Made by a program: the position numbers and the translations under genes
The notes under the pieces: generated by a model
The model's database searches: none
What the model was told of the DNA's origin: nothing
What the model saw: only the letters and a program-made list of their open reading frames with translations
Part shown: piece by piece, positions 29,623-53,684 of the stretch
How the letters are laid out: every line of letters begins with the position of its first letter
How positions within the stretch are numbered: position 1 is the first letter of the stretch
IMG/VR virus record: IMGVR_UViG_3300047462_000211
Reading direction: 5' to 3' (one strand)
Source: a virus
Taxonomy: Duplodnaviria > Heunggongvirae > Uroviricota > Caudoviricetes
Length of the DNA stretch: 64,000 nt

Positions 29623-29967
29623 TTATGTTAATAATTTTGCTAACGTGCAATCTGATTGATTTTTGAAATAAAAATTATTTTTAACAATTAATTTATAAGG
29701 AAATTCTAATGGCATTGTTTCATAAGAAAATTTCCATTTTTTTTCATTAAAATTATTGTTGTTTGTGAAAAATTTTATTTCTAGTGGACAATAAAATTCA
29801 TAAAATCCTAATCCAAAAATATTATAATAAGTTTGAAAAATTTCTAAACCAAATAACTCACCGTATGATATAAATTGTTTTTCAAGTTTTATTATAACTG
29901 AATGGCAAAAAATATATTCATCTGTATGGCAAGTTGCATTTTCATATCTGTTTTCTTTTTTCATCAC
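29623..29967 (-). CDS. Small protein, member of the ..SDC(V/T)L.KLL C-terminal paralog family
   Basis: C-terminus FKNQSDCTLAKLLT resembles FENKSDCVLYKLLGGE of 38935..39120. Confidence 0.4.
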   Translation of the reverse strand: MMKKENRYENATCHTDEYIFCHSVIIKLEKQFISYGELFGLEIFQTYYNIFGLGFYEFYCPLEIKFFTNNNNFNEKKWKFSYETMPLEFPYKLIVKNNFYFKNQSDCTLAKLLT

Positions 29968-30623
29968 AATTTTCCAATAATTGTTGAAATTTTAGGTCTA
30001 TCTTCAAAAAGAGGATAAACCTGTGTTGGGTCAACGATAATCCATGATTTATCACCATTGCCTTCTGCAATGTTTTCAAAACAAACTCCATCATATCCTT
30101 TGTCTAAAAGCATGACATTCACGATTTCATTTTTCTTATCATATGTCAATTTTTTTATTTGCTGTTCTGAATATCCCGCTTCCAATAATATACCAACATA
30201 TTCTGGGTTTAACGCATTGATTTTCTTTGAAAAAAACGCAATATCTTTACTCATATATAATGGATTTGCAATATGTAAAAATGCAGGAATAATCATCGCA
30301 TGTTTGGGATAGATATCATATTCGTCATAAGTTCCCCAAGGATGTTCCCTGACAATTTTTAATTGGTCAGCGTGTTTGATATAATCTTCATGTAAATGTC
30401 TGTAGACAATTGAATCGGGGTCTCCAAACAACATACGCAATCTTTGATTTTCGGTTTCGTATGTTCCAAATTGCATCAAAATATGATAAGTTTTGTTTGG
30501 AATAATTGTTCCATGAAAAACGATTAAAGGATAACCATCTTTATCCAAAACTTTTGAATGACCTACCCATGACCAAAAGTTATAATCATTTTTTCTTATG
30601 TAGTAATTATCTTGGAATTTCAA
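29964..30623 (-). CDS. Hypothetical protein with HGT motif; possible H-Y-E-class ADP-ribosyltransferase / Tpt1-like fold
   Basis: PLIVFHGTIIPNK resembles the strand-1 HG(S/T) motif of DT/PARP/Tpt1-type ART folds. Speculative. Confidence 0.3.
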   Translation of the reverse strand: MKFQDNYYIRKNDYNFWSWVGHSKVLDKDGYPLIVFHGTIIPNKTYHILMQFGTYETENQRLRMLFGDPDSIVYRHLHEDYIKHADQLKIVREHPWGTYDEYDIYPKHAMIIPAFLHIANPLYMSKDIAFFSKKINALNPEYVGILLEAGYSEQQIKKLTYDKKNEIVNVMLLDKGYDGVCFENIAEGNGDKSWIIVDPTQVYPLFEDRPKISTIIGKL

Positions 30624-34494: not shown

Positions 34495-35083
34495 TTATAC
34501 AATCTTTCCATTTATCAAACAAAAATACTTTAGATACAACATTGGGTTCTGGAATAAATCCATAACTCAGATATTTGGTTAATCTTTCTGGCGAAGTAAT
34601 ATGCTTATAGGTATCAGTAAATTGCAATATTTTTTTCTGATTATGTTCATGGAAATCTTTATGCAATACAAAGTTCTTTCCATCAGTAATACCATTACAA
34701 CAAGTAAAATCAATTGATTCCAAAACATCTTTCCATGAATTAAAAAATATAAATTTTACAAAATTAAATGTGATGATACTATCTTTTGCTTTTAAATTAC
34801 AAAATTTACTGATTTTTCTATATTGTTCTTCATCTTTGAAATAAACATCAACATCTCTTGGTAATTTATCTTCAAATTTATTGCGAACATAGCCACCAGC
34901 AATCCAAGGACCATTTTCTAAATCAAAAATTTTATTGTCAGAAAAATCATCATTTATAAAAGTGCCATGATAATATTTCGAATCTGATAAATAATTAGAA
35001 AGAGAATTATCGAATGCCTTATCAGATTCTAAACGCGGATGGAACTTTATTACTGACTTTAGCGGATGACGTAATTGATACAT
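34454..35083 (-). CDS. Minimal Pol-beta-superfamily nucleotidyltransferase (GG-type, CCA/PAP head-like)
   Basis: AGGYVRNKFEDKLPRDVDVYF fits the GGxVRD...D.D nucleotidyltransferase head motif. The track ORF extends to 35281 but that overlaps the conserved start of the tail-fibre gene at 35014 on the other strand. The only downstream Met is at 35083. Confidence 0.5.
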   Translation of the reverse strand: MYQLRHPLKSVIKFHPRLESDKAFDNSLSNYLSDSKYYHGTFINDDFSDNKIFDLENGPWIAGGYVRNKFEDKLPRDVDVYFKDEEQYRKISKFCNLKAKDSIITFNFVKFIFFNSWKDVLESIDFTCCNGITDGKNFVLHKDFHEHNQKKILQFTDTYKHITSPERLTKYLSYGFIPEPNVVSKVFLFDKWKDCIIDGKFTTESAFNS

Positions 35084-36450
35084 CCACAACTTCACTTTCT
35101 CTCTTAGGGAAAGATGCTTCTGGTTATGGTCAATATATTGCTGACAATTTTGTTCAACTTCTTGAAAATTTTGCAAGCCCGAATCCTCCAAATAGTCCAC
35201 AAGCTGGACAATTATGGTATAATAAAGGGTCATCATTATTAAGTGTATATAATTCTTCAACTTGGATTCCATTAGCCACACAAGCTTGGGTTAGTTCTCA
35301 AAATTATGTTTTACAAAGCACATTAACGAATTTTGCATCTCAAAGTTTTGTATTACAACAAGTTGCTGCCAACATAGTCAACACAGCCCTTACAGGCACG
35401 CCTACAGCCCCTACAGCATCTTTAGGTACTAACTCATCCCAAATTGCTACAACTGCCTTTGTAACTTCTTCAATCAATTTAATTAACGTAAATCACACAC
35501 TTACAATAACAGGCGATGTTACAGGCACAACGCCTTATGGAACAGCTAATGAATCCTTTGCCTTAACATTAGCGCCATCTGGTGTAACACCAGGAACATA
35601 TAATTCAGTTGTTGTTAATTCTAAAGGATTGGTTATTTCTGGTAGTGTAACAAATACTGGCGGCGGAAGTGGCGGTGGAACAACATTTACAACACCAGTA
35701 CAATTTGATAACTCAACAAATGTTGCAACAACCGCTTTTGTTCAAAGAGCACTTGGTAATTATTCAAATTATGTAAATGTTAATTCACAAGGAACAATCG
35801 TAACTTCGCAACTTGGTTCATCGATTGCGATTAATTCCACAACAAATAATTCTTATATCACAACAATCCCAGAAGCCGTAAATGCTTCTACTTTTCTTTC
35901 TTTTTATAATAATTCAACAGTTAATCAACAAATCCAAACAACGAATTCAAAATTCTATGGTCCAAATGGTTCTGGAACAACAACATTTACGATATATCCA
36001 AACGAAGTAATTGATGTTGTTGCAAATGGAACAAATTGGATAGTTAAATTAAATAAAATGAGAACCAGTGCTGGTCCATCTGTTTGGAATTATAGCGCAT
36101 CAACTGTACAACCAACTTATGTTTGGGGAACAAATGATGGAATAAACATGAACATTTATAATCCATCAAATTTAAATGTTGCTACAGTTTCTTCAATCGC
36201 TTGGAATAATGTAATTGGCAAACCAACAGATTTATCTTATTTCACAAATGGTCCAGGCTATATTGCTGGTGGTGTTAGAACAGCAGCAGGAATTGCCGTA
36301 GGTTCTCCAACTGGAAATTGTGGTAATTGTGGCGGTGTTGCAACAGGAAATTGCACAACATATTTAACTTTGAACACAACAGGAAGTTTTAGTATGACAT
36401 ATGATGTTGTTAATTGCACAACACCAACAGACTGTTCTAATTGCGGTTAA
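35014..36450 (+). CDS. Tail fibre protein (478 aa) with Phage_fiber_2 repeat and Cys-rich tip
   Basis: N-terminal module (..GYGQY..DNFVQLLENFA...P.AGQLWYN) shared with 51290, 52556 and 53685. TGTPTAPTASLGTNSSQIATTAFV equals the phage tail-fibre repeat. C-terminus GNCGNCGG..GNC..NC..DCSNCG. Confidence 0.8.
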   Translation: MPYQILNADGTLLLTLADDVIDTSTTSLSLLGKDASGYGQYIADNFVQLLENFASPNPPNSPQAGQLWYNKGSSLLSVYNSSTWIPLATQAWVSSQNYVLQSTLTNFASQSFVLQQVAANIVNTALTGTPTAPTASLGTNSSQIATTAFVTSSINLINVNHTLTITGDVTGTTPYGTANESFALTLAPSGVTPGTYNSVVVNSKGLVISGSVTNTGGGSGGGTTFTTPVQFDNSTNVATTAFVQRALGNYSNYVNVNSQGTIVTSQLGSSIAINSTTNNSYITTIPEAVNASTFLSFYNNSTVNQQIQTTNSKFYGPNGSGTTTFTIYPNEVIDVVANGTNWIVKLNKMRTSAGPSVWNYSASTVQPTYVWGTNDGINMNIYNPSNLNVATVSSIAWNNVIGKPTDLSYFTNGPGYIAGGVRTAAGIAVGSPTGNCGNCGGVATGNCTTYLTLNTTGSFSMTYDVVNCTTPTDCSNCG

Positions 36451-36845
36451 ATAATAATTATTGGGAAACCACGCACCGCACCAGCCGTTTCTATATATAA
36501 TTCTCCATTATTGTTAATTTTTAATTTTCCCTTAAAAAATAATCTTGTCGATTCCAAACGCCAAACTTCATCTGTTCTAAATATATCTGGTACTAAATCA
36601 TTAGTTGGTTTAAAAACTTTGGAATGACCATGAATCGCATAAACAAAATATTTTTGTTTTGGATTTGTTATAATTGTTGTTTTCCAATCATCATACCCAC
36701 CAATCGCCATCAAACATTTTTCTATTGATGGAGCAAAACATATTCTTTTTATTTTGTGGTCTTCAACTGGGTCCATTTTTGATGGAATTTGAGGGTCAAA
36801 CCAAACAGTTTTCCCATGATATTTTTCTGACAAATGATAATACAT
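36447..36845 (-). CDS. Hypothetical protein (132 aa)
   Basis: ORF track. Convergent with the fibre gene. Confidence 0.45.
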   Translation of the reverse strand: MYYHLSEKYHGKTVWFDPQIPSKMDPVEDHKIKRICFAPSIEKCLMAIGGYDDWKTTIITNPKQKYFVYAIHGHSKVFKPTNDLVPDIFRTDEVWRLESTRLFFKGKLKINNNGELYIETAGAVRGFPIIII

Positions 36846-36875
36846 GAAAATATATTATCATAATTAAGTTTTCTG

Positions 36876-37100
36876 TCAAGAAGATTTTGCAAGTTTTAAA
36901 AATACCAAAAATCTTTCAAATTCTACTTTCAATGTCGGGTTTTCTTCTATTGTTTGCCAGATTGTTTTATAATACAATAATTCTTTTTGATATTCTTCAA
37001 CCGCATCTTCCAAAACTCTTACATCAATCTGTAATTGTTGTATTTTTTCATACAATAAATGAATTTTGTATCTGTCATCATCTGAATCGCCATAAAACAT
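36876..37100 (-). CDS. Small coiled-coil protein, paralog of 37100..37399
   Basis: C-termini align: NPTLKVEFERFLVFLKLA against NPSLQSEWVKFVTFIKLIA. Confidence 0.5.
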   Translation of the reverse strand: MFYGDSDDDRYKIHLLYEKIQQLQIDVRVLEDAVEEYQKELLYYKTIWQTIEENPTLKVEFERFLVFLKLAKSS

Positions 37101-37399
37101 TATTTCAATTTCTCAATTTCTTCTGGTTCAGCAATCAATTTGATGAAAGTCACGAATTTTACCCATTCAGATTGTAAAGATGGATTTGCTTGTATCAAAG
37201 CAGTTAAATAATCATAATATTCAGCACTTTTTCTTTTAGATTCCCACATGTTTATTTGTCTACTCAACCTGTCTTCTGTTCGCATCAACAACGTTATTTT
37301 ATTCTCCATCAATTCAATTTGAGTATTTAATTCTTGAATTTTTCTCTTCAATAAAATATTTTCAGTTTCTTCAATGTTAATTTTTAATTCTTCTTGCAT
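37100..37399 (-). CDS. Small coiled-coil protein, paralog of 36876..37100
   Basis: See the paralog entry. Heptad-rich N-terminal half. Confidence 0.5.
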   Translation of the reverse strand: MQEELKINIEETENILLKRKIQELNTQIELMENKITLLMRTEDRLSRQINMWESKRKSAEYYDYLTALIQANPSLQSEWVKFVTFIKLIAEPEEIEKLK

Positions 37400-37457
37400 A
37401 AAAATATCGTATCAAAAAAATATATCAAGTTCAATATTATTATGTTATAATTATTTT

Positions 37458-38765
37458 ATGGCAACATTTAAATTACATACAGTATCGGCAACAACTGGTG
37501 ATAAAAAAATATTTTATTATGATAATGAATTTTCAACATTAGTAGATGAAAATGGCGAAAACATAATTAATCAAGAAAACAAAAAACAATTTAATGATTG
37601 GATTGCGATTAGTAAAGATAAACCAGGAATAAAAACATCACCAAAAATAATCAAAATACAAATGGGATTATCATGTAATTATTCCTGTTTCTATTGCAGC
37701 CAAAGATTTGTGCCACATGCAGAAGAAACAAATAAAAATAATATAGAAAAATTCATGAAAGATTTACCAAAATGGTTTTCAAGTAATGATGGAACAGATT
37801 GTTCAATCGAATTCTGGGGCGGTGAACCATTTGTATATTGGAAAACAATGCAACCATTAGCAGAAGAATTAAAACAAAAATACCCAAATGCAAAAATGTC
37901 AGTCATTACAAATGGTTCTCTTTTAGATACAGAAAAAAATATCTGGTTAGATGAAATGGATTTTGCAGTTGCAATCTCGCATGATGGACCAGGACAAATT
38001 ATTCGTGGACCAAATCCATTAGATGATGAAGAAAATAAAAAATCTATATTGGATTTATATAATAGATTAAGACCAAAAAATAAAATTACTATCAATGCCA
38101 TGGTTAATAAAAATAATATCAACAGAGAAGCAATACATGATTATTTAAAAGAATTTTTTGGTGAAGATGTGCCTATTGGTGAAGGTGGATTTATTGACCC
38201 TTATGATGAAGGCGGAATGCAATCTTGTTTTGAAACACAAGAAGAACATATCAACTATAGAAATAATTATTTGATTGAAATACGAAACGGTAAAGTTAAA
38301 AACTTCGTAAACATAATGCAAAAAATAAACGATTTCTATCATTCAATTTGTGATAATAGACCATCAAAATCGTTGGGTCAAAAATGTGGCATGGATAATC
38401 CAGAAAATATTTCTGTTGATTTAAAAGGCAATGTTTTAACATGCCAAAATGTTTCATCAGTTGCAAAAAGCATGAATGGAGAAAATCATAAAATTGGACA
38501 TGTAAATGATTTAGAAAATGTTAAATTAAATACCGCAACACATTTCTCAAATCGTAAAGAATGTTTGGATTGTCCCGTTCTACAATTATGCAAAGGTAGT
38601 TGTATGTTTCTCGAAAATGAATTCTGGGAAAAAGGATGCGATTCATCTTTTAGTGATAATATTCCATTATTCGCATCAGTTATTGAAGCAATTACTGGAT
38701 ATCTGCCTGTTTATATTGATGGACCACAAAGAGAAGAAAGAAAAAATATTTTTTGGAGTCTTTGA
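37458..38765 (+). CDS. Radical SAM enzyme with C-terminal SPASM-type cysteine cluster
   Basis: CNYSCFYC (Cx3Cx2C), GGEPFVYW and ITNGSLL motifs. C-terminal CGMDNPEN...TCQN...CLDCPVLQLCKGSC. First ATG in context at 37458. Confidence 0.8.
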   Translation: MATFKLHTVSATTGDKKIFYYDNEFSTLVDENGENIINQENKKQFNDWIAISKDKPGIKTSPKIIKIQMGLSCNYSCFYCSQRFVPHAEETNKNNIEKFMKDLPKWFSSNDGTDCSIEFWGGEPFVYWKTMQPLAEELKQKYPNAKMSVITNGSLLDTEKNIWLDEMDFAVAISHDGPGQIIRGPNPLDDEENKKSILDLYNRLRPKNKITINAMVNKNNINREAIHDYLKEFFGEDVPIGEGGFIDPYDEGGMQSCFETQEEHINYRNNYLIEIRNGKVKNFVNIMQKINDFYHSICDNRPSKSLGQKCGMDNPENISVDLKGNVLTCQNVSSVAKSMNGENHKIGHVNDLENVKLNTATHFSNRKECLDCPVLQLCKGSCMFLENEFWEKGCDSSFSDNIPLFASVIEAITGYLPVYIDGPQREERKNIFWSL

Positions 38766-38938
38766 TTATTCTTCTGTAAGTTTATTTTTTCTTGAAAAAT
38801 AAAAATATCTAAATTTATTTCATCAGATGCTTCAAATATAATTTCACTTGAATGAGGAAAATCAGAAAATTTCAATGACTTTAATGATTTTATGTCTTCA
38901 TATGAATAAAATATTTTTACTTTATTGCCCATATTCAT
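38711..38938 (-). CDS. Hypothetical protein (75 aa)
   Basis: ORF track. Confidence 0.35.
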   Translation of the reverse strand: MNMGNKVKIFYSYEDIKSLKSLKFSDFPHSSEIIFEASDEINLDIFIFQEKINLQKNNQRLQKIFFLSSLCGPSI

Positions 38939-39120
38939 TCCCCTCCAAGTAATTTATATAAAACACAATCTGATTTATTTTCAAAGAATATTTCATCTAT
39001 TTTTATATAAAAATCACCTGAACAATTCTGTTTGCACCAATTTAAAAGATTGTTATATCTGTATAAACTAACAGTAATTATTATGTTTTTCATATCATTT
39101 ATATCCAAAACATACGTCAT
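38935..39120 (-). CDS. Small WC..NC-motif protein (61 aa), paralog family member
   Basis: LNWCKQNCSGDFYI....FENKSDCVLYKLL. Compare 39363 and 47397. Confidence 0.5.
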   Translation of the reverse strand: MTYVLDINDMKNIIITVSLYRYNNLLNWCKQNCSGDFYIKIDEIFFENKSDCVLYKLLGGE

Positions 39121-39362
39121 TGAACGATGTGGTAATTTATATGAAAATTTTTTCTTTTTTTTGTAAATGTTCTTTAATAAAATTATTTATTTTTGGTATA
39201 TCCACTTCATTATATGATATTGGATGGTCGAAAATTATTTCTAATGCATGATATTCAATCGATGTGAGTATTATTTCTACTTTATTTAAAAAACACACAT
39301 GTTGTTTTTTCAGTATATTTCTAGTGTGTCATTAGTAAAATATAAAGATAGTTTACTCATTC

Positions 39363-39635
39363 TCATTCTTGTATGAGTTTATAAAGCGCGGCATCAGATT
39401 CTTTTTCAAACGATACCCCATTATATTCAATCAAATATTCACCAATGCAATTATTTTTACACCAATCAATAAGATTTTTGTATTTTGAAATTATAACAAC
39501 AAGTTCGAATCCAAAATCATTGTTTACTAACCATACAATCCAAGGGTTAAAATTAAATGCAATAGATAATTTTTGATTTGAAAGTAAATTATTTAATTTT
39601 TTATTTAAGTGAAATTTGCCAAAATGTGGAATCAT
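39363..39635 (-). CDS. Small WC..NC-motif protein (90 aa), paralog family member
   Basis: IDWCKNNCIGEYLI....FEKESDAALYKLI. Confidence 0.5.
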   Translation of the reverse strand: MIPHFGKFHLNKKLNNLLSNQKLSIAFNFNPWIVWLVNNDFGFELVVIISKYKNLIDWCKNNCIGEYLIEYNGVSFEKESDAALYKLIQE

Positions 39636-39803
39636 TTCATTTATATTTACATCATCAATGATTTCAAAATCTTGGAATTTATAATTCCAAAATTGTGGTT
39701 TTGTTAAAAAATATCATCATCATCAATGTAATTTACTTTTAACGGCATACCACATTTTGACAGAAATCAAACAAAAACACAAGTTTTAAAAAGATAAATA
39801 CTG

Positions 39804-40010
39804 TTGCGCGAGTCGCGGATGGCAAAATCCCACTCGCCCTATCGTTTGGGAGAAACAACAGCTTATGAATATAGAGGCAGAACAGCTTGGAATAAGGGGC
39901 TTTCTTTTCATACTGATGAAAATAAACAAAAAATTAGTGAAGCTTCAAAAAGAATGTGGGAAAATAAACGGAAAGAAAAATTAGAAGACCAAAAAGATAT
40001 GGGCTTATAG
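39804..40010 (+). CDS. Small basic protein with NUMOD3-like motif (homing-endonuclease DNA-binding module remnant?)
   Basis: SFHTDENKQKISEASKRMWENKRK resembles NUMOD3 (hs.EtK.KiSea..g). Local GC-rich 5' end. Stop lies inside a hairpin. Confidence 0.4.
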   Translation: MRESRMAKSHSPYRLGETTAYEYRGRTAWNKGLSFHTDENKQKISEASKRMWENKRKEKLEDQKDMGL

Positions 40011-40019
40011 CCCATATCT
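39993..40019. terminator. Bidirectional hairpin terminator: 12-bp perfect stem aagatatgggct/agcccatatctt, in which both convergent genes terminate
   Basis: Perfect palindrome read directly. Stop codons of 39804..40010 (+) and 40005..41615 (-) both lie within it. Confidence 0.7.
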
Positions 40020-41615
40020 TTTCTTTAATTCTTTTCTAATTTCCACAAAAACATCATCCCATTTTCCTTTTTCAGTTTGATAAAATATTTTCATATTTGG
40101 ATACCATTCTGATTCATTTGGAGTTCCTTCATTTTTGTGTTTTTCTTGATTCCACCGCCAGCAGCTATCTTTTCTTGAAATCATCCAAACTTCTGGACCA
40201 TCAATAGCAGCCGATAAATGTGCTGGTGCGGTATCTGCTGTTATAACTAAATCTAGCCCTTTTATAATATTTGCGGAATCAAGAAAATCAAAATTTGAAT
40301 TAAGTAATTTAGGAATTAGATGATTTTCTGCTTCTGCTGCTGGAACACCAAGTTGTAAAGAACCAAATTCTAAAGGTAAATCAAGCAAATTATCTTCAAA
40401 AATTTTGAAAAAAAGGCTCCTACGTTTGTCAACTGCCGCCAAATCCGCATCTTCGCGTTTATGTCCTGCCCAGACCAATCCAATTTTAGCAGACGTTTTG
40501 ACAACTTTTTCGCATTTAAGATATGGAATTGTATTTGGAATTGTTTCCATTGTTGTTTTAAAAATCAAAGGTGAGTTTAATAATGGCACTTCATAATCAT
40601 AAGGATATGCATCATTTCTTGTATCGGTTACATTTACATTTGGAAATGATAATTTAAATAATCTAACCAAAGGTGTTGGAACACAGACCCAGATTTCTTT
40701 TGCAATATTTTCATACATTGGAATATAACGACAAAATTGCAAACTGTCACCAAAACCTTGTTCATGAAATACACAGATTTTTTTATCTTTGATTTCTTCT
40801 AAAGTTGTTGCAACTGGCGCTCTAAAATCTGCTCTATCTTTTACTGTTAAAGTTGATTCCCAACGTCTTGCATAATGTTTCCAACCATTTTCATAATCAC
40901 CTTCATCCAAATAAAACAATGAAAGCATGAAAGCAACTTCAGCAGAATCTTCAATCTTTAAATAATCCAGACACATTTGTTTTGCATCTTCAACATGTTC
41001 ACCTTTAGCCATTCTATATGAAGCATGATTAAATTTCGCACGATGATTTTTTGGCTCAATTTCCAAAATTTTTGAATAACAATCAAACCCCAATCCTGGT
41101 TCATCTAATTTTCGGTATACGTTTCCGAGGTTTAACAAAATTTCAATTGATTTTGGATTTAATTTCAAACCTTCAAGAAATGCATCTCTTGCTTCAGTAT
41201 ATTTTTCCATACCAACCAAAGCATTTCCTTTACAAAAATACAATGTTTCATATTGATGATGATTTAAACCTTCACTTGCAAATAACATAGCTTCTTGTGG
41301 ATATTTTTCACAAAGAACAACAGAAGCATTTGCATACCAATTAATAACTTGTGGCATTAACATTGATGCAGTTTTTAATAATGGCAATCCCATCTCTGCT
41401 TTACCGTTTACAACCATTGCCAAACCAGAAATATGAAGCATTTCTGGAACACAATCATCTACGAATTTTTTAGAAATTCCTTCTAATAGTTTCTGATAAT
41501 TTTTTTCAAAATATAATTGCCAAAGATGTTGTACTTTACTTGGTTGGTGCGTTTCTTTTTTGTTATTATTATTCACAAATAAACCCTTTATTTTATTTTT
41601 GTTATTGTAGCGCAA
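40005..41615 (-). CDS. TPR-repeat protein fused to GT9-like (heptosyltransferase-family) glycosyltransferase domain
   Basis: N-terminal half with several TPR-like repeats (..AxxxFxxxLxxxP..LG..Y..). C-terminal half FHEQGFGDSLQFCRYIP...TAPAHLSAAIDGPEVW resembles GT9 motifs. Confidence 0.55.
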   Translation of the reverse strand: MRYNNKNKIKGLFVNNNNKKETHQPSKVQHLWQLYFEKNYQKLLEGISKKFVDDCVPEMLHISGLAMVVNGKAEMGLPLLKTASMLMPQVINWYANASVVLCEKYPQEAMLFASEGLNHHQYETLYFCKGNALVGMEKYTEARDAFLEGLKLNPKSIEILLNLGNVYRKLDEPGLGFDCYSKILEIEPKNHRAKFNHASYRMAKGEHVEDAKQMCLDYLKIEDSAEVAFMLSLFYLDEGDYENGWKHYARRWESTLTVKDRADFRAPVATTLEEIKDKKICVFHEQGFGDSLQFCRYIPMYENIAKEIWVCVPTPLVRLFKLSFPNVNVTDTRNDAYPYDYEVPLLNSPLIFKTTMETIPNTIPYLKCEKVVKTSAKIGLVWAGHKREDADLAAVDKRRSLFFKIFEDNLLDLPLEFGSLQLGVPAAEAENHLIPKLLNSNFDFLDSANIIKGLDLVITADTAPAHLSAAIDGPEVWMISRKDSCWRWNQEKHKNEGTPNESEWYPNMKIFYQTEKGKWDDVFVEIRKELKKRYGL

Positions 41616-44950: not shown

Positions 44951-45484
44951 TTATATAAAATTAGTTAAATCTTGTCTTTCGTATTCATTATATTCCAAAG
45001 ATTTAAGTATTTTTTCAAGGGGAATTGCATATCCTTCTGTATCCCAACATTTATTTTTTATTATATTTTTTGAATATTTTTGAGTTTTTATTAAATTATT
45101 GATTATTAGACAAAGTTTATTTACATCATAAAAAATATATAAAATTTTATTTTTTGTAAAATAATTACCAAATAATACATGTTCATTGATTATTTGTCCC
45201 TCTTGTACAGTGCGGTATGGACCACCTATTTTTTCTCTTTGTACATCACTAAAAGTTTCAACAAACATATTTTTTGTGTCATCGTAATTTTCAGATTTCA
45301 TTTCTAAATAACAAATATCATTTCCAAAATTTACTATATAATCTATACCTTTAATTTGTTTATTTTTTCTTGCGTTTGAAAATATAGTGTTTGTTTTCAT
45401 CCAAGCATTAACAGCTTCATCTGCGTAATGATTTCCAAAATTCAAATCATTTTTAAAATTAATTTCTCCATTTATCATTTTCAT
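44951..45484 (-). CDS. PD-(D/E)XK-family nuclease candidate (177 aa), co-transcribed immediately downstream of a Dam-like MTase
   Basis: E..(ADEAV) ... GIDYIV ... 13 aa ... YLEMK gives the E / D / ExK arrangement. Start overlaps the MTase stop by 26 nt. Confidence 0.45.
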   Translation of the reverse strand: MKMINGEINFKNDLNFGNHYADEAVNAWMKTNTIFSNARKNKQIKGIDYIVNFGNDICYLEMKSENYDDTKNMFVETFSDVQREKIGGPYRTVQEGQIINEHVLFGNYFTKNKILYIFYDVNKLCLIINNLIKTQKYSKNIIKNKCWDTEGYAIPLEKILKSLEYNEYERQDLTNFI

Positions 45485-46205
45485 ATATTCCCATTACTTC
45501 AGTATCTCCCTGTTTTGCACCATTTACTCTCATTTTTCTTGATGAAACCGCACTAATGTTTTGTTTTTTAAAATTATATTCTCTGTCAAAAAGTATAATG
45601 GTTTTTGCTATTTTTTTAATTTCGTTTATATAATCCCAGTAAATAGTATAATCAAAAATAGTATTATATGATGCTTGAGAATTTTGATATGGTGGGTCAA
45701 TTACTATAGTTTTGCCAATTAAAAATTCTTTTGGTATATCAATATAAGATAAATTTAAACATTTTGGTGATAATTCGGTCCAACGTACCAAGGCTAAATC
45801 ATACTCTGGTTTAACATTTATATTTTTTAAATTAAAATCTTTTTTCATTGGAACATTAAATCCATTTTTGGAATATCTAAAAACCCCAGAAAAACTCATT
45901 TTTTGTAAACAATATATATATTTCCACCATTCAATATCTTTTCGATATTTCATGTAATCTTCTTTGGTAAATGTTTCAAGAACAATTAATTTGTCAAAAT
46001 TTGCCATAATTTTGTAAACAATTGAATCGATATCGTTCAAAATTGCGGTTTTTGCTAAATTTGCTGAAATTACAGAAGAACCACAAAAAAGTTCAACAAA
46101 ATTTTCATTTTTAAATTCTTGTAAATCCTTTATCCAATAAGCTTTTGAGCCTACATAAGACGGTAAAAATTTTATTAAATTTGTTTTCAAACTATTATTT
46201 CTCAA
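45459..46205 (-). CDS. N6-adenine DNA methyltransferase, D12/Dam-like class
   Basis: N-terminal YVGSKAYW, FCGSSVIS (AdoMet motif I-like), catalytic DPPYQN. Confidence 0.75.
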   Translation of the reverse strand: MRNNSLKTNLIKFLPSYVGSKAYWIKDLQEFKNENFVELFCGSSVISANLAKTAILNDIDSIVYKIMANFDKLIVLETFTKEDYMKYRKDIEWWKYIYCLQKMSFSGVFRYSKNGFNVPMKKDFNLKNINVKPEYDLALVRWTELSPKCLNLSYIDIPKEFLIGKTIVIDPPYQNSQASYNTIFDYTIYWDYINEIKKIAKTIILFDREYNFKKQNISAVSSRKMRVNGAKQGDTEVMGIYENDKWRN

Positions 46206-47396: not shown

Positions 47397-47705
47397 TTAA
47401 ATCAAACAAAGTTTAAATAATGTTGCATCATTTTTTGATTTGAATGCAAATTCTTTTTCATTAAATACCCAATCTTCATTACAATTTTCTTGGCACCAAT
47501 GAATTAAATTATTTAGTTCTAAAAATTTAAAACATCTATGGATAACAGTATATCCAAAAGTTTCGTCAATTATTTTTACATATTTTGGATAAAAACAGGA
47601 AATTTCTGTTTGCTCTATGTTACGTTTTCTTGGTGGCATAGATAAACAACTGTAAAGTATATCAATTTTTAAAAAATATTCAGAAATACTATCACCAAAA
47701 CTCAT
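47397..47705 (-). CDS. Small WC..NC-motif protein (102 aa), paralog family member
   Basis: IHWCQENCNEDWVF....FKSKNDATLFKL. Confidence 0.5.
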   Translation of the reverse strand: MSFGDSISEYFLKIDILYSCLSMPPRKRNIEQTEISCFYPKYVKIIDETFGYTVIHRCFKFLELNNLIHWCQENCNEDWVFNEKEFAFKSKNDATLFKLCLI

Positions 47706-47784
47706 GAAATTATTTAGCGATTATAATTTATTGATTTTGATTATCTTTAATTTTATATTGAAGAATAAATTTTGGAAGCCAAAA

Positions 47785-49185
47785 ATGAAACCATATCAAG
47801 TTGTTGAAAAATTAGAAAAAACTCCTGGCAAAAAAGATAAAGAACAAATTCTTATTGAAGCATTTATGAGCAACAACCATGAATTTTTTATTGGTGCACA
47901 ATATGCGTTAGATAATTTGATTTCATTTGGTGTTAAACAAGTCGCACTAATTGATGATTCAGATTTAAATCCAGAAAATCCTGGAACTGTAAGTTTTGAT
48001 GATTTCATTGATTTATTGAAAAAATTATCAGCAAGAAAATTAACTGGTCATGCAGCAAGAGATGCTATTAATGAAATGGCATCTAATTGTCATGGTCCAA
48101 CATGGAATTCATTTTATCGAAGAGTTTTATTAAAGAATTTGCGATGTGGTGTTGATACATCAATCAATAAAGTTTTGGAAAAATTAAAAGCATATCCAGA
48201 AGCAGAAGAATTAAAAATCCCAGTATTTTCTTGCCAATTAGCAAGCGATGGTTCCAAACCACCACATAATAAGAAATTAAAATCGACTATGTATCTGCAA
48301 TTAAAAATAGATGGGTCAAGATTGCTGACCTTTCTTAATAAAGAAGATGGAACGGTTAAACAATATTCTCGTGTTGGTCATTTAAATGAAAATTTCTCAC
48401 ATATTACGGAACCTCTTAAAAAATTACTTCCTCATTTAAAAGAATCTGTTGTTTTTGATGGTGAAATAGTTGGTAAATCTTTTCAGGAATTGATGAAATC
48501 ATTTAGTAGAAAAACAGAAACAACCAATGATTCAAAACTTGCTTTATTTGATATGATTCCAATGAATGATTTCAAAAAAGGATATTGTGCATTATCACAA
48601 GAAAAACGACATTGGTTATTATCTGAATTTCAAACGTCTGGTTTGTTTACAAAATACACAAACGGTTTGGTTTATGTTTTGCCAGAAAAAATTGTAGATT
48701 TTGATACTGATGATGGACAAGAAGAATTCAAAAAATTTGTTAATTATGCTGCATCTTTACGTGTTAATGACCCAACAATTGAGGGTGTTATGGTCAAAGA
48801 TATGAAAGCACCCTATGAAGGTAAACGTGTTGATAAATGGTTAAAAATCAAACCGTTTGTTTCAGTATCTTTGACAGTAATGTCTGTAGAATTAGGTGAC
48901 AAAGATGGCAAATATAAAAATGTTATTGGAAATATCATTTGTGAAGGCATTGATGATGGTGTGAAAATAAAAGTTTCTGTAAGCAGTGGCATTACAGATG
49001 ATTTGCGTAAAGAATGGTTGGTTAAACCGCCTATTGGTTTTATTGTTGAAATTGAAGGTGATGCTTTTACATTAGATGAAGCGGCTATCAAAGAAGCAGA
49101 ATATACAGGAAATGACCCTGTTTATTCAATTCGTTTTCCAAGATACAAGGGACAAAGAGGATTTAAGGCTGGACAAAAAATTTGA
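47785..49185 (+). CDS. ATP-dependent DNA ligase
   Basis: Motif I LQLKIDGSR (KxDG), III VVFDGEIV, IV EGVMVKD, V DKWLKIK. The track start 47704 would overlap the divergent gene; the in-context ATG is at 47785. Confidence 0.85.
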   Translation: MKPYQVVEKLEKTPGKKDKEQILIEAFMSNNHEFFIGAQYALDNLISFGVKQVALIDDSDLNPENPGTVSFDDFIDLLKKLSARKLTGHAARDAINEMASNCHGPTWNSFYRRVLLKNLRCGVDTSINKVLEKLKAYPEAEELKIPVFSCQLASDGSKPPHNKKLKSTMYLQLKIDGSRLLTFLNKEDGTVKQYSRVGHLNENFSHITEPLKKLLPHLKESVVFDGEIVGKSFQELMKSFSRKTETTNDSKLALFDMIPMNDFKKGYCALSQEKRHWLLSEFQTSGLFTKYTNGLVYVLPEKIVDFDTDDGQEEFKKFVNYAASLRVNDPTIEGVMVKDMKAPYEGKRVDKWLKIKPFVSVSLTVMSVELGDKDGKYKNVIGNIICEGIDDGVKIKVSVSSGITDDLRKEWLVKPPIGFIVEIEGDAFTLDEAAIKEAEYTGNDPVYSIRFPRYKGQRGFKAGQKI

Positions 49186-49381: not shown

Positions 49382-49509
49382 GAAACGAAAAGTAAACCAT
49401 GACTTGAAAACCCGCCAAGTCTCGCTGTTACACGATTTACTACGTGGGAAACGAAAAGTAAACCATGACATCATTGGTCTCATAGTGAATTGCCCAGATG
49501 ATTTACTAC
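49382..49509. CRISPR. Candidate orphan mini-CRISPR array: 66-bp period, full 36-nt repeat GATTTACTACGTGGGAAACGAAAAGTAAACCATGAC flanked by two exactly 30-nt variable segments and degenerate terminal repeats
   Basis: gaaacgaaaagtaaaccatgac occurs at 49382 and 49448. gatttactac occurs at 49434 and 49500. Intervening segments are 30 nt each and unrelated to one another. The repeat contains an internal TTTACT/AGTAAA palindrome. AT-rich leader-like sequence lies upstream. The alternative reading is iterons or a protein-binding-site array. Confidence 0.4.
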
Positions 49510-50504
49510 CAGTAATTTGTGATAATTAAATGCCTAACATCTTGATTATTTCTGTTTTTAAAATTCACACTGTATTTCTTATCAAATGATTTTATATTAA
49601 ATCCAGTATATAGTTTACTTATGTTTGGTGTTTCTTTCACAACTGCCATGAATTTTGCTGGTGTTATAGTCAACAAATCTGCCAATTCTATTTGTTTATT
49701 GAAATCAAAATCTTCTTCTTTATTATATTGAGAAAATTCGCTGTCATATGGCGGGTCAATAAAAATAAAATCGTATTTTGTAAAATTATTATATTTTGAA
49801 AAAAATCTTTTGAAATCCATGCAATTAAATTCTGTATTATTATAAAAACTTCTTTCTGATAAATCTAACATATTATAGAATTTACTTCGCATTCTCTTTT
49901 TATTATATGAAATACCACCATATGGAACATTGAAATTTCCATTTTTGCAAAATCTAAACATTCCAGAATAAGACAATTCTCGCATAATAAAAAAGTAAGC
50001 ACTATCAGCACAAGGTGCTTTATTATAAAATTCTCGATATGCATAATATAAAGCGGCATGCATTGCTGTTTTTATAAACAAAAAATATTCTTCATCGGTT
50101 ATTTTTTTATTATTTTTTAGTTCTATTTTTTGAATTAATTTATTTTTACTATCTATTTCTCTTTGAAAATATTTTATATAAGCTGGATGAGTGCAAATAG
50201 TTTTATTTTTCTCGAAAATATTATGCCCAATGTTCAAATCCAATTCATCAATAGCATCAGAAATATCATCAAAATCTTTTAAATCCTCATAAATTAACCA
50301 AAAATTATCGTTTATATCTACATAAAATTTCATTAATTCATTATTCAAATCATTTACGATGCTTTTTTCATGTTCAAGATGAAAATATAAAGCACCGCCG
50401 CCAAGAAATGGTTCAACATATCTATCAAAATTTTTTGGCATGTTTTCAAGAATTACTGGTATTTCAGAAGTTTTTCCACCAGTCCATTTAATAATGTTTT
50501 TCAC
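49506..50504 (-). CDS. N6-adenine DNA methyltransferase, D12/Dam-like class
   Basis: KWTGGKTSEIP...YVEPFLGGGALYF (motif I), DPPYDSEF (motif IV). Confidence 0.8.
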   Translation of the reverse strand: MKNIIKWTGGKTSEIPVILENMPKNFDRYVEPFLGGGALYFHLEHEKSIVNDLNNELMKFYVDINDNFWLIYEDLKDFDDISDAIDELDLNIGHNIFEKNKTICTHPAYIKYFQREIDSKNKLIQKIELKNNKKITDEEYFLFIKTAMHAALYYAYREFYNKAPCADSAYFFIMRELSYSGMFRFCKNGNFNVPYGGISYNKKRMRSKFYNMLDLSERSFYNNTEFNCMDFKRFFSKYNNFTKYDFIFIDPPYDSEFSQYNKEEDFDFNKQIELADLLTITPAKFMAVVKETPNISKLYTGFNIKSFDKKYSVNFKNRNNQDVRHLIITNYW

Positions 50505-50506
50505 AT

Positions 50507-51234
50507 CTATTCCTTAATAAAAATATTTTTTATTGAATTCTTTTTGTATTCTATCTTCTGCGCTATTTTGAAATATTTTTCATCTTTTTCTATACCAATA
50601 AATTTTCTATTTTCTAAAACACACGCAACCCCAGTTGTTCCGCTGCCCATTGTATTGTCTAAAACCACATCATCTATATCGGAATATGTTTTTAAATATC
50701 TCATCAAATCTATTGGTTTTTGTGTTGGATGCAATCCACATTGTGAAGAGTGTTTAGGAAAATTTAATATAGTTTTTGGATATTTCATTCCAGAAGTATC
50801 ATCAGCTACTCTTTTATTAATTAAACGAGTTTCGGAAAAATTTTCTTTTGCATTTTTACCTTGAATATGATTTGGTTTTCCAGAAATCATTTGTGGATTA
50901 TATTTTGTTTGTTTTTTACCAAAAACAATAATATCTTCATGTTGTTTTAATGGTTGTTTTTTTGCATTTGCAAAATTGGCAGCATTTTCTTTATTCCAAA
51001 TCCAAGAACATCGAAACATTTCAAGATTTGATGATACTAACATGGACGTAAATGGTTGAGATTTTTATATTCGAACCATAATTTGTCCATAGGAATTATT
51101 TTATCAAATTCGGCATAAGTAGTACCGTAAGGCAAATCTGCTAAAATTAAATCAACATTTTTGTCTGAAATTTTTTTCATTATATTAAGACAATCACCCA
51201 AATATAATTCATATTTTTCTTTAATTGAAACCAT
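50507..51234 (-). pseudogene. Beta-class N4/N6 DNA methyltransferase split by a -1 frameshift (51037..51234 N-terminal part with DLPYG; 50507..51043 C-terminal part with TMGSGTTGVA)
   Basis: N-terminal ORF has LILADLPYGTTY (motif IV first). C-terminal ORF has CSWIWNKEN and VLDNTMGSGTTGVACV (motif I). The two frames overlap near an A5 run at about 51040-51060. Confidence 0.6.
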
Positions 51235-51289
51235 TAAATACCATTTTAAAAAAGTTCATAAATACCATTATAACATATTTGGTTTAGAA

Positions 51290-52552
51290 ATGGCATATTT
51301 AATTACAACAACTAATGGCGCAGTATTAGGTGAAGTTTTACCACAACAATCTAATAATACATTTAGTTCTTTAACGTTAATTGGTGAAGGTTTGCTAAAT
51401 TACGGGCAATATTTGAATGATGATTTGATTGCCTTAACTGAAAATTTTGCGAATACTTCTTCACCAATTTATCCATTAGTTGGGCAGCTTTGGTATAACA
51501 CTGCATCAAAACTTTTAAATTATTATGATGGTTTAAGTTGGGACGCTGTTGCTTCACAAAATTGGGTATCTAGTAATTTTGTTGCTAGTGCATCATATAA
51601 TTCTATATCAAGTACAATTTCAAACATTATTGCTTCTGATGGTTTAAATTCAGATGGAACAAAATCGAATTATACATCAAATAATTATATTTTAAATAGT
51701 GATTCATTACTTTCAGCAATTAGCAAATTAGATCATGCTTTATCCAGTTCAAATACACCAGCTTCATATTTGACAATTTCTGCTGCGCAATCAACTTACG
51801 CGCCATTAATATCTCCAAATTTTTCTGGAATACCAACTGCACCAACTGCTTCTGCTGGAACAAATAATTCTCAAATTGCAACAACAAATTTTGTATCTAG
51901 TAATTTTGTTTCAACAACATCTGCTGGTTCACTTTATTTAACAGTAGTCAGTGCAGCTTCAACATATGCGCCAATTGCATCACCCACATTTACTGGTTCG
52001 CCAACTGCACCAACTCCAACAACCACAGATAATAGCACAAAACTTGCTACTACTGCTTTTGTAAATTCATTTTCAACGACATTAAGCAATCAAATTTTAA
52101 CTAATGTTAGCGGGACATATCTTACCATTGCTGCTGCACAATCTGAATATGCACCAAAAGTATCACCAAATTTTGGCGGTATTCCAACAGCACCAACACC
52201 AGCTACAGGAAATTCAAGCACACAATTAGCAACCACACAATTTGTGCAAAATACTATTACTTCATTATTTGGTTCTAATTTATCACAAAATGGATATCAA
52301 AAATTATCAAGTGGTTTAATTATGCAATGGACAGAAATTAATGGCACTGGACCTTGGACATATCCCATAGCTTTTCCAAATTCTTGTTTTATATGCATAG
52401 GAAATGCTTATGTAAACAATTCTACTTATATTGACGTTATTGAAATGGGTACATTTAGTGCAACACAAGCAACATTTTCAATAAGTAGAGTTGGTCCAAG
52501 CTATGAAGGTAGTGGGTCTGGAATAGCTTGGTTATTTGCTTTAGGATTTTAA
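51290..52552 (+). CDS. Tail fibre protein (420 aa) with three Phage_fiber_2 repeats
   Basis: Shared N-terminal module (..NYGQYLNDDLIALTENFANTSSPIYPLVGQLWYN). Repeats SPNFSGIPTAPTASAGTNNSQIATTNFV / SPTFTGSPTAPTPTTTDNSTKLATTAFV / SPNFGGIPTAPTPATGNSSTQLATTQFV. C-terminal GYQKLSSGLIMQW module. CATAAATA lies 28 nt upstream. Confidence 0.85.
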   Translation: MAYLITTTNGAVLGEVLPQQSNNTFSSLTLIGEGLLNYGQYLNDDLIALTENFANTSSPIYPLVGQLWYNTASKLLNYYDGLSWDAVASQNWVSSNFVASASYNSISSTISNIIASDGLNSDGTKSNYTSNNYILNSDSLLSAISKLDHALSSSNTPASYLTISAAQSTYAPLISPNFSGIPTAPTASAGTNNSQIATTNFVSSNFVSTTSAGSLYLTVVSAASTYAPIASPTFTGSPTAPTPTTTDNSTKLATTAFVNSFSTTLSNQILTNVSGTYLTIAAAQSEYAPKVSPNFGGIPTAPTPATGNSSTQLATTQFVQNTITSLFGSNLSQNGYQKLSSGLIMQWTEINGTGPWTYPIAFPNSCFICIGNAYVNNSTYIDVIEMGTFSATQATFSISRVGPSYEGSGSGIAWLFALGF

Positions 52553-52555
52553 AAT

Positions 52556-53683: not shown

Positions 53684-53684
53684 A

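What the first reader, a model, noticed from the sequence alone, without database searches (positions are those of the whole stretch)
37458..39635. Phage-encoded radical SAM/SPASM enzyme adjacent to members of a small two-Cys paralog family
A complete rSAM core (CNYSCFYC, GGEPF, TNGSLL) with a SPASM-like C-terminal Cys cluster is unusual in a phage. SPASM enzymes are typically peptide or protein maturases such as sulfatase maturases and RiPP synthases. Immediately downstream, though convergent, lie two members (38935, 39363) of a four-member family of 60-115-aa proteins sharing a C-terminal motif (F.(N/E)(K/Q)SD(C/A).L(Y/A)KL(L/I)); three of them carry a W-C-x2-N-C pair. The other members are at 47397 and 29623. 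The enzyme could modify these proteins or a structural protein, or act in nucleic-acid modification.
Basis: partly seen in the sequence, partly recalled or inferred. Interest (0 to 1): 0.55.

Follow-up and report, generated by a model that had tools for sequence, protein, structure and literature searches.

The report
Radical SAM maturase for tail fibres
The phage enzyme is real, but its conserved partner is not the small neighbouring proteins: it is a tail-fibre protein with an Asn-Cys-rich end, and this enzyme/fibre pairing recurs in hundreds of phages and prophages and appears to be undescribed.

Summary
Window 37458-38765 (+) encodes a complete radical SAM enzyme with a 7-Cys SPASM domain. 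A small paralog family lies convergently downstream.

The small family is an ORFan set found only on this contig. It is absent from 84 loci that carry the enzyme, including the closest relative.

The enzyme's conserved partner is a tail fibre whose C-terminus is rich in Asn-Cys. In three independent samples, 49/56, 47/54 and (reverse search) 53/54 loci pair this enzyme family with a same-strand upstream fibre ending in (Asn-Cys)3-8.

The window carries a degenerate version. Fibre 35014-36450 ends NCGNCGG..GNC..VNC..DCSNCG, with all 6 Cys in the last 43 residues and 5 preceded by Asn. In the nearest relative the fibre and enzyme genes are directly adjacent.

By sequence and predicted fold the enzyme sits among peptide/protein-modifying SPASM enzymes (anSME, ChlB, CteB, PapB). 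It falls far below every curated family threshold.

Most likely it installs Cys-to-Asn/Asp thioether cross-links in the fibre tip. The substrate assignment rests on strong comparative evidence; the chemistry is inferred. I found no prior description. New variant of a known kind; high interest.

The parts
35014..36450 (+). Tail-fibre protein (478 aa), the proposed substrate of the enzyme
   Evidence: It matches several PHROG tail-fibre families (phrog_4209 2.6e-15, phrog_11518 9e-13). It is 59% identical to the fibre that lies directly upstream of the enzyme gene in relative L083. Three other fibre-like paralogs in the window (51161-54869) have 0-2 Cys and no Asn-Cys tail, which serves as an internal control.
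36316..36447 (+). Asn-Cys-rich C-terminal tip of the fibre: NCGNCGGVATGNCTTYLTLNTTGSFSMTYDVVNCTTPTDCSNCG
   Evidence: All 6 Cys of the protein lie here. Five are preceded by Asn and one by Asp (P about 9e-6 against the window's own proteins). My hand count over the 39 tip residues shared with L083 gives about 87% identity, against 59% for the whole protein. The composition matches that of canonical (Asn-Cys)n tails: N 77%, D 11% within the runs, and 93% of other tail Cys preceded by N.
37458..38765 (+). Radical SAM / SPASM enzyme (435 aa), the proposed fibre maturase
   Evidence: The AF2 model has pLDDT 87.5 and pTM 0.88. The best fold matches are anSME, ChlB, CteB and SuiB.
37674..37697 (+). 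CX3CX2C motif (CNYSCFYC) that binds the radical SAM [4Fe-4S] cluster
   Evidence: The translation is. The three Cys are invariant in 40 family members.
38385..38639 (+). SPASM domain with 7 invariant Cys (auxiliary Fe-S clusters)
   Evidence: TIGR04085 scores above its cutoff. In the alignment to anSME, one of anSME's two N-terminal SPASM Cys has no Cys counterpart in this family.
38935..39635 (-). Two members of the small ORFan paralog family (38935-39120 and 39363-39635). They lie inside the finding but are not part of the conserved system.
   Evidence: The paralogy is real. There is no co-occurrence with the enzyme family and there are no homologs outside this contig.

Best explanation
The enzyme is a dedicated maturase of a tail-fibre (receptor-binding) protein. 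It acts on the Asn-Cys-rich C-terminal tip of the fibre encoded at 35014-36450.

Proposed mechanism:
- The radical SAM cluster cleaves SAM to a 5'-deoxyadenosyl radical.
- A substrate Cys thiolate binds the open site of SPASM auxiliary cluster I.
- A hydrogen is abstracted from a neighbouring Asn (or Asp) carbon.
- A Cys-S-to-carbon thioether forms.
- Repeated along the tail, within one chain or between chains of the fibre trimer, this would covalently staple the tip. It would do so in the reducing cytoplasm, where disulfides cannot form.

What is shown: the enzyme class, and the tight, bidirectional, long-conserved genomic coupling between this enzyme family and fibres with Asn-Cys tails.

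What is inferred: that the fibre tail is the substrate, and that the modification is a thioether. My estimates are about 0.7 that the fibre tail is the substrate in the window (higher for the family as a whole), and about 0.4 that the chemistry is Cys-Asn/Asp thioether.
For: 1. Forward test. Of 56 IMG/VR loci found through the enzyme and holding at least 4 kb upstream, 49 have a same-strand ORF within 8 kb upstream that ends in at least 3 X-Cys units including at least 2 Asn-Cys (median gap 1454 bp). Four of the seven exceptions carry a variant: an Asn-Cys run followed by a Hint domain (JWF, L046), or shorter Cys tails (ACNCACC in L074, NCQCGN in RSP15).

2. Independent set from bacterial genomes, where enzyme identity falls to 37-42%: 47/54 meet the strict rule, and 53/54 when runs followed by a Hint domain or a short extension are counted.

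3. Reverse test. IMG/VR was scanned only for DNA encoding NCNCNCNC. Where the motif lies within 10 residues of the stop of a frame of at least 90 aa, 53/54 have this enzyme downstream on the same strand. For internal motifs the figure is 0/16, and for short frames 2/7.

4. The cultured phages RSP15 and JWF show the same layout, next to annotated tail-fibre genes.

5. In the window lineage, L083 has the fibre and enzyme genes adjacent and co-directional, 54 nt apart. The tip is more conserved than the rest of the fibre. Only the fibre near the enzyme gene has the Cys tail.

6. Codons in the Asn-Cys runs are mixed (adjacent hexamers identical in 32/79), so the repeat is selected at the protein level.

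7. Enzyme class. The best NCBIfam hit is the PapB ranthipeptide maturase (7e-21). Fold matches are anSME, ChlB, CteB and SuiB. The family has 7 rather than 8 SPASM Cys, as in thioether-forming CteB (that comparison is from my own knowledge).

8. The residue before Cys is N 77%, D 11%, A 6%. This mirrors the acceptor range of the Cys-Asn beta-thioether synthase NxxcB, which natively uses Asn and tolerates Ala, Gln and Asp (PMC9389541).
Against: - There are no biochemical data. The chemistry is inferred from class resemblance only.
- The window's tail lacks the canonical run of at least 3 X-Cys units. Profiles built from canonical tails do not detect it (no hit at E <= 10, and none at E <= 100 with filters off). 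A profile of mini-fibres reaches only domain E 0.022 on L083. The link for the window therefore rests on composition, position and the L083 adjacency.
- In the window, three minus-strand ORFs (36447-37399) separate the fibre and enzyme genes, so the two are not co-transcribed.
- The window lacks the two accessory genes common elsewhere: cluster 'c3' (43/56 loci) and a 2OG-Fe(II) oxygenase (40/56 loci).
- The closest fold match, anSME, makes formylglycine, not thioethers.
- No RiPP recognition element was detected.
- A few loci (L040, L058, L068) have the enzyme without any Cys-rich fibre.
Confidence: 0.6

Rival explanations
1. One reading: the enzyme matures the small two-Cys paralogs (38935, 39363, 47397, 29623) as RiPP-like precursors.
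For: The proteins lie close to the enzyme gene. Three members have a conserved W-C-x2-N-C that also contains an Asn-Cys dipeptide.
Against: The genes are convergent with the enzyme gene, not co-oriented. The profile finds no homolog in 84 enzyme-bearing loci, including syntenic L083, and none anywhere else in 5.8 billion protein clusters. The enzyme family is large and old. Two members lie 8-9 kb from the enzyme gene.
Confidence: 0.03
2. Same substrate (the fibre tail) but different chemistry. One option is anSME-like oxidation of Cys to formylglycine. Others are epimerisation or another radical modification, possibly working with the 2OG oxygenase that often accompanies the enzyme.
For: anSME is the best structural match (Foldseek E 1.7e-10) and the second-best PDB sequence match. 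anSME acts on whole proteins without a recognition element, as would be needed here. The epimerase YydG/EpeE also matches.
Against: The anSME family model scores 42.9 bits against a cutoff of 349. The anSME target motif C/S-x-P/A-x-R is absent from the tails. The strict Asn/Asp-Cys pairing suggests that both residues take part, as in Cys-Asn/Asp thioethers. The family has 7 rather than 8 SPASM Cys.
Confidence: 0.2
3. The Cys-rich tail is a metal- or Fe-S-binding tip, analogous to the His-x-His iron sites of T4 fibre tips. On this view the enzyme is linked for another reason, for example cluster or metal handling, or a fibre-assembly role that needs no covalent modification of the tail.
For: Alternating X-Cys in a beta-strand puts all thiols on one face, which suits metal ladders in a trimer (inference). 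Metal-binding repeats are known in fibre tips (my own knowledge).
Against: The enzyme keeps every catalytic radical SAM and SPASM residue across about 500 clusters at 50% identity. This model does not explain the preference for Asn/Asp before each Cys.
Confidence: 0.1
4. The enzyme acts on a non-protein substrate (nucleic acid, cofactor or host metabolite) and merely travels with fibre cassettes.
For: Phages do carry radical SAM enzymes for deazaguanine DNA modification, and viperin-like models give weak hits (viperin_w_prok 1.2e-17, against a cutoff of 180 bits; phrog_2076 QueE-like 0.0028).
Against: The enzyme has a full two-cluster SPASM domain. Its nearest folds are all peptide/protein modifiers. 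The coupling to one peculiar protein motif is near-obligate in both directions. No nucleotide-metabolism genes are conserved beside it.
Confidence: 0.05

Closest known systems
Anaerobic sulfatase-maturating enzyme (anSME, PDB 4K36-4K39)
   Same: It is an rSAM plus two-cluster SPASM enzyme. It is the best fold match (TM 0.5-0.6, 18-20% identity). It modifies a Cys in a full-length protein rather than in a leader-bearing peptide, and it has no recognition element.
   Different: The family model scores far below its cutoff (42.9 against 349 bits). anSME has 8 SPASM Cys; this family has 7. The sulfatase C/S-x-P/A-x-R motif is absent, and the partner is a phage fibre with Asn-Cys units.
PapB / ranthipeptide maturases and CteB (SCIFF)
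   Same: PapB is the best curated-family hit (7e-21) and CteB matches by fold and sequence. Their substrates are Cys-rich, and they link Cys sulfur to a side-chain carbon of Asp, Glu or Thr (PMC9413430 abstract; PMC9389541).
   Different: The PapB model scores 74.8 bits against a cutoff of 340. Their substrates are short leader-containing peptides with C-x3-D motifs and an RRE domain on the enzyme. Here the substrate is a structural protein of 90-890 aa with adjacent Asn-Cys units, and no RRE was detected.
NxxcB (Cys-Asn beta-thioether synthase of streptococcal RaS-RiPPs)
   Same: It is the only characterised rSAM that links Cys to Asn. It tolerates Ala, Gln and Asp as acceptors (PMC9389541), which parallels the N/D/A preference before Cys in the fibre tails. 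An (Asn-Cys)n run contains overlapping N-x-x-C motifs.
   Different: No specific sequence relationship was shown; no NxxcB model was among the 25 NCBIfam matches displayed of 43. NxxcB acts on a small quorum-regulated peptide. The window's own tail has Asn-Cys but no N-x-x-C spacing.
QhpD (maturase of the quinohemoprotein amine dehydrogenase gamma subunit)
   Same: It is an rSAM/SPASM enzyme that installs several Cys-Asp/Glu thioethers in a protein subunit rather than in a secreted peptide (my own knowledge). It gives a weak hit of 1.3e-12.
   Different: The model scores 47 bits against a cutoff of 453. The partner and biological context are unrelated.

Membership tests
Radical SAM superfamily | CX3CX2C cluster motif and a GGE-type SAM-binding motif | tested here: met
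   CNYSCFYC and FWGGEP are invariant in 40 family members. Pfam PF04055 gives 1.5e-6, at 29.0 bits just under its cutoff of 29.5.
SPASM-domain rSAM enzymes | C-terminal 7-Cys motif CX9-15GX4C...CX2CX5CX3C...C | tested here: met
   All 7 Cys are invariant. TIGR04085 scores 34.2 bits, above its cutoff of 27.
anSME (TIGR03942 / PRK13758) | Score above the family cutoff | tested here: not met
   42.9 bits against 349, and 33.6 against 441.
anSME (TIGR03942 / PRK13758) | Substrate with the C/S-x-P/A-x-R sulfatase motif | tested here: not met
   There is no such motif in the window tail or in the canonical tails. No sulfatase appears among the conserved neighbours.
PapB-type ranthipeptide maturase (NF047865) | Score above the equivalog cutoff | tested here: not met
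   74.8 bits against 340.
PapB-type ranthipeptide maturase (NF047865) | Thioether product between Cys and a side-chain carbon | not testable with these tools
   This needs mass spectrometry or NMR of the modified tail.
RiPP pathway (classical definition) | Short precursor with a leader and a core, plus a recognition element (RRE) on or beside the enzyme | tested here: not met
   Partner proteins are tail fibres of 95-891 aa. No PqqD/RRE family was hit. The enzyme's modelled N-terminus is three beta-strands only. Some loci do carry tandem ~95-aa mini-fibres that resemble multiple precursors.
Viperin-like rSAM (NF038283) | Score above the cutoff | tested here: not met
   64 bits against 180, and the match covers the rSAM core only.
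(Asn-Cys)n-tailed fibre + rSAM cassette (defined here) | Same-strand upstream fibre ending in at least 3 X-Cys units rich in Asn | tested here: inconclusive
   The window fibre has 5 Asn-Cys and 1 Asp-Cys in its last 44 aa but no contiguous run. Tail profiles do not detect it. Position and the L083 adjacency support membership.
(Asn-Cys)n-tailed fibre + rSAM cassette (defined here) | Enzyme belongs to the same orthologous family | tested here: met
   The window enzyme is 47-57% identical over its full length to enzymes of canonical cassettes, RSP15 and JWF included.

The most novel reading that the evidence does not exclude
A widespread, undescribed maturation pathway for a virion structural protein. 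Phage and prophage receptor-binding fibres end in poly(Asn-Cys) tails. A dedicated rSAM/SPASM enzyme, often together with a 2OG-Fe(II) oxygenase and a conserved ~285-aa protein, converts these tails into a ladder of Cys-Asn/Asp thioether cross-links. That would be RiPP-type chemistry used to harden or shape the host-recognition tip.
Probability: 0.4. Interest if true: 0.9.

Novelty: new variant of a known kind. Interest (0 to 1): 0.78.

Why it matters
rSAM/SPASM enzymes are known as makers of small peptide natural products and as maturases of a few enzymes. A family dedicated to phage tail fibres would extend radical peptide chemistry to virion proteins.

It would also add a new variable to host recognition and fibre stability, which matters for host-range prediction and for engineering phages and tailocins. 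The poly(Asn-Cys) substrate is compact and naturally diverse, which makes it attractive to enzymologists and to people designing peptide staples.

The hypothesis can be tested directly, because two cultured phage groups carry the cassette: Ralstonia phage RSP15 and Achromobacter phages JWF and 2-1.

Tried and rejected
- Small-family co-occurrence. A local HMM against 85 sequences and a profile search of 5.8 billion proteins found nothing outside the window. AF2 of the family gave pLDDT 50, which is uninformative. Pfam, NCBIfam and PHROGs gave no hit.
- Linking the window's fibre tail to canonical tails by profile. HMMs of 89 tails and of 6 mini-fibres gave no significant hit on the window.
- More relatives of the window clade. 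The metagenome scan gave one truncated locus, L205. The search with the fibre's C-terminal half returned nothing, not even the protein itself. The IMG/VR scan with the fibre found no relatives.
- Accessory genes of canonical cassettes (c3, 2OG oxygenases, c9, c10, J-like fibre). None is present in the window at E <= 10.
- DNA match to known phages: none.
- Promoter and terminator scan of 34800-40100: not informative, with promoter-like sites below the shuffled expectation.
- Literature. Eight full-text searches found no description of an rSAM acting on tail fibres or of Asn-Cys repeat tails. One paper merely notes 'radical SAM cassettes' in the host-recognition cluster of pelagimyophages (PMC7029224). 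Subscription journals are not covered, so prior work cannot be excluded.
Full report
**What is at the coordinates**

The + strand ORF 37374..38765 has its real start at ATG 37458. From there the protein (435 aa) begins MATFKL, matching the N-terminus MAxFxI shared by its homologs. It carries CNYSCFYC (37674-37697), FWGGEPF and VITNGSLL.

Its C-terminal part holds a complete seven-Cys SPASM pattern, C310-x13-G-x4-C329 ... C369-x2-C372-x5-C378-x3-C382 ... C394. NCBIfam's SPASM domain model passes its cutoff (34.2 against 27 bits). Pfam Radical_SAM is borderline (29.0 against 29.5) and Fer4_12 passes.

Convergent with the enzyme gene lie the small ORFs 38935-39120 and 39363-39635. With 47397-47705 they form a real paralog family (BLASTP 2e-13 and 2e-9), and each carries W-C-x2-N-C. 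The fourth member, 29623-29967, shares only the last 15 residues.

**What kind of enzyme it is**

Every curated family scores far below its threshold:

| Family | Score (bits) | Cutoff (bits) |
|---|---|---|
| PapB ranthipeptide maturase | 74.8 | 340 |
| prokaryotic viperin | 64 | 180 |
| QhpD | 47 | 453 |
| anSME | 42.9 | 349 |

A profile of the family against PDB sequences finds an unnamed rSAM (8VPO, 1.7e-16), then anSME (about 5e-11) and CteB (2e-9).

An AlphaFold2 model built on 40 homologs is confident (pLDDT 87.5, pTM 0.88). Its best Foldseek matches are anSME, ChlB, CteB, SuiB and SkfB, all peptide- or protein-modifying SPASM enzymes, at TM about 0.5-0.6. The enzyme belongs to that class but to none of its named subfamilies.

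In the HMM alignment to anSME, the family Cys in 'QKCGMD' pairs with the first of anSME's two N-terminal SPASM Cys. The second has no Cys counterpart. Only seven SPASM Cys are invariant. From my own knowledge of anSME (eight ligating Cys) and CteB (auxiliary cluster I with an open site that binds the substrate Cys), this suggests an open coordination site. That is an inference, not a result.

**The small family is not the partner**

A profile of the four small proteins finds only themselves in 1.28 Mb of sequence comprising the window and 84 loci that carry the enzyme. That set includes the syntenic relative L083. A profile search of 5.8 billion protein clusters again returns only these four proteins, all from one 89-kb contig.

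The enzyme family, by contrast, has more than 3000 hits at E <= 0.001, and its best 120 are all 51-100% identical to the window protein. It has 504 clusters at 50% identity with E <= 1e-30. The family's structure prediction was too poor to use (pLDDT 50).

**What the enzyme does travel with**

In the cultured phages that carry it, the enzyme gene lies at the end of the tail-fibre module:
- Ralstonia phage RSP15: 49% identity.
- Achromobacter phages JWF and 2-1: 46-47% identity.

The fibre just upstream ends ...VNCASGG...TNCQCGN in RSP15. In JWF it ends ...QNCNCDCNCNCS, followed by a Hint self-cleaving domain.

I then fetched 80 IMG/VR loci through the enzyme. Of the 56 with at least 4 kb upstream, 49 have a same-strand ORF within 8 kb upstream that ends in at least three X-Cys units with at least two Asn-Cys. 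Examples are ...YYNCNCNCNCNC and ...NCNCNCQCDC. The median gap is 1454 bp and the median length 307 aa. Four of the seven exceptions carry variants of the same thing, and three (L040, L058, L068) do not. These ORFs match tail-fibre PHROGs and follow J-like central fibre genes.

A second set came from one genome per bacterial species. It gave 199 relatives, mostly Burkholderiales such as Limnohabitans, Polaromonas and Burkholderia paludis MSh1, plus Alphaproteobacteria at 37-42% identity. There, 47/54 loci meet the strict rule, and 53/54 when runs followed by a Hint domain or a short extension are counted.

The reverse test is the strongest. I scanned IMG/VR for nothing but DNA encoding NCNCNCNC and sorted the hits by position of the motif:

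| Position of the motif | Loci with the enzyme downstream, same strand, within 8 kb |
|---|---|
| Within 10 residues of the stop of a frame of at least 90 aa | 53/54 |
| Internal to the frame | 0/16 |
| Short frames | 2/7 |

The pairing is thus close to obligate in both directions and has persisted over deep divergence of the enzyme.

**Anatomy of the tails and of the cassette**

In 123 distinct tails the terminal run has a median of 5 X-Cys units (range 3-8). X is Asn in 77%, Asp in 11% and Ala in 6%. Of the other Cys within the last 70 residues, 93% are also preceded by Asn. The recurring unit is therefore the Asn-Cys dipeptide.

All four synonymous hexamers are used, and neighbouring units are identical in only 32/79 cases. 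The repeat is kept by selection on the protein, not by DNA slippage.

Between the fibre and the enzyme gene most cassettes carry two further genes:
- A conserved ~285-aa protein with no family match (43/56 loci).
- A 2OG-Fe(II) oxygenase (40/56 loci). The evidence is Pfam PF13759 at 1.4e-9 and PF13640 at 4e-8, with a third cluster joined to the first by hhalign at 98%.

Some loci instead have very small Asn-Cys-tailed proteins 4-8 bp upstream of the enzyme gene, or tandem triplets of ~95-aa mini-fibres.

**The window's own version**

ORF 35014-36450 is a tail fibre by PHROGs. All six of its Cys lie in the last 43 residues: NCGNCGGVATGNCTTYLTLNTTGSFSMTYDVVNCTTPTDCSNCG. Five are preceded by Asn and one by Asp. 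The probability is about 9e-6 given how rarely Asn precedes Cys in the window's other long ORFs, and about 7e-6 for the Cys clustering itself.

The nearest relative, L083, has 78% enzyme identity and conserved synteny further upstream. It encodes the homologous fibre (59% identity) directly upstream of the enzyme gene, 54 nt away on the same strand. That fibre ends ...GNCGNCGTVSTGNCTTYLTLTTTGNFSMTYDVVNCS. By my hand count, the shared tip is about 87% identical, well above the protein average.

In the window, three minus-strand small ORFs (36447-37399) have been inserted between the two genes. One of them is a known phage ORF of unknown function. Three other fibre-like paralogs in the window (51161-54869) share the N-terminal anchor motif but have 0-2 Cys and no such tail.

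There are weak points:
- The window tail has no contiguous X-Cys run.
- Profiles of canonical tails do not detect it.
- The window has none of the accessory genes.

The window is therefore a minimal, divergent member. Its assignment rests on composition, position and the L083 adjacency.

**Mechanism**

The best-supported reading is that the enzyme matures the fibre tip. For the chemistry I favour Cys-to-Asn/Asp thioether cross-links, for four reasons:
- The best curated hit is a Cys-Asp thioether synthase.
- Related folds include the thioether synthases CteB and SkfB.
- The seven-Cys SPASM pattern fits thiolate binding at auxiliary cluster I.
- The N > D > A preference before each Cys mirrors the acceptor range reported for NxxcB, the one characterised Cys-Asn beta-thioether synthase (PMC9389541).

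A plausible rationale is that fibres fold in the reducing cytoplasm, where disulfides are not available, so thioethers would give a permanent staple. That is my inference. Hint domains placed after the run in some fibres suggest that the run must end up as the free C-terminus.

Each is scored separately in this report.

**Novelty**

Pfam, NCBIfam (June 2026 release) and PHROGs hold only generic names for this family. Eight full-text searches found no account of an rSAM acting on tail fibres or of Asn-Cys repeat tails. The nearest remark is that pelagimyophage host-recognition clusters differ by 'radical SAM cassettes' (PMC7029224). Subscription literature is not covered.

I class this as a new variant of a known kind: an rSAM/SPASM maturase with a new class of substrate, a phage receptor-binding protein.

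Noticed in passing
L002 5844-7295 (JWF gp028); L052 7993-9138; L046 7016-8440; L241; L262 (Burkholderia paludis MSh1): In some fibres the (Asn-Cys)n run is followed directly by a Hint (intein-like) domain, as in ...NCNCNCSC|FPAGTMVLMADG. Self-cleavage there would leave the run as the free C-terminus.
   Followed up: partly
L054 6518-7375 and 7372-7989; L062 9315-10001; L016 9231-9815; L001 6311-7989: Canonical cassettes carry two further genes between the fibre and the enzyme gene: a conserved ~285-aa protein with no family match, and a 2OG-Fe(II) oxygenase (PF13759 / PF13640). Both are absent from the window. The oxygenase may hydroxylate Asn/Asp in the tail.
   Followed up: partly
L011 7641-8553; L140 9623-10541; L165 4242-5179; L177 2021-2631: There are tandem triplets of ~95-aa mini-fibres with a shared N-terminus (M.TTLGNG.VTFGDGT), variable middles and (Asn-Cys)n ends. 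They resemble multi-precursor RiPP clusters.
   Followed up: partly
window 36447-37399 (-): Three small minus-strand ORFs are inserted between the fibre and enzyme genes. 36876-37100 and 37100-37399 look like tandem coiled-coil paralogs that share NP(T/S)L(K/Q)xE(F/W)x(R/K)F(L/V)xF(L/I)KL. 36447-36845 matches phrog_5043 (unknown function).
   Followed up: partly
window 40005-41615 (-): A 536-aa protein has TPR repeats and a weak C-terminal match to glycosyltransferase family 9. It may be a protein glycosyltransferase, and it lies close to the fibre/enzyme pair.
   Followed up: no
window 21247-21915 (+): A short (222 aa) TnpB-like ORF (OrfB_IS605 4.6e-23, Cas12f1-like TNB 3.1e-18) sits inside the phage structural region.
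   Followed up: no
window 29964-30623 (-): An ART-PolyVal ADP-ribosyltransferase domain (4e-7, at the Pfam cutoff) lies next to the fourth small-family member. It is conserved in L083 (66% identity).
   Followed up: no
window 51161-54869 (+): Three consecutive fibre-like paralogs share the N-terminal anchor motif with fibre 35014-36450 but lack its Cys tail, so this phage carries several alternative fibres.
   Followed up: partly
window 45459-46205 (-), 49506-50504 (-), 47704-49185 (+): Two Dam-like D12 adenine methyltransferases flank an ATP-dependent DNA ligase. The small-family member 47397-47705 abuts the ligase gene.
   Followed up: no
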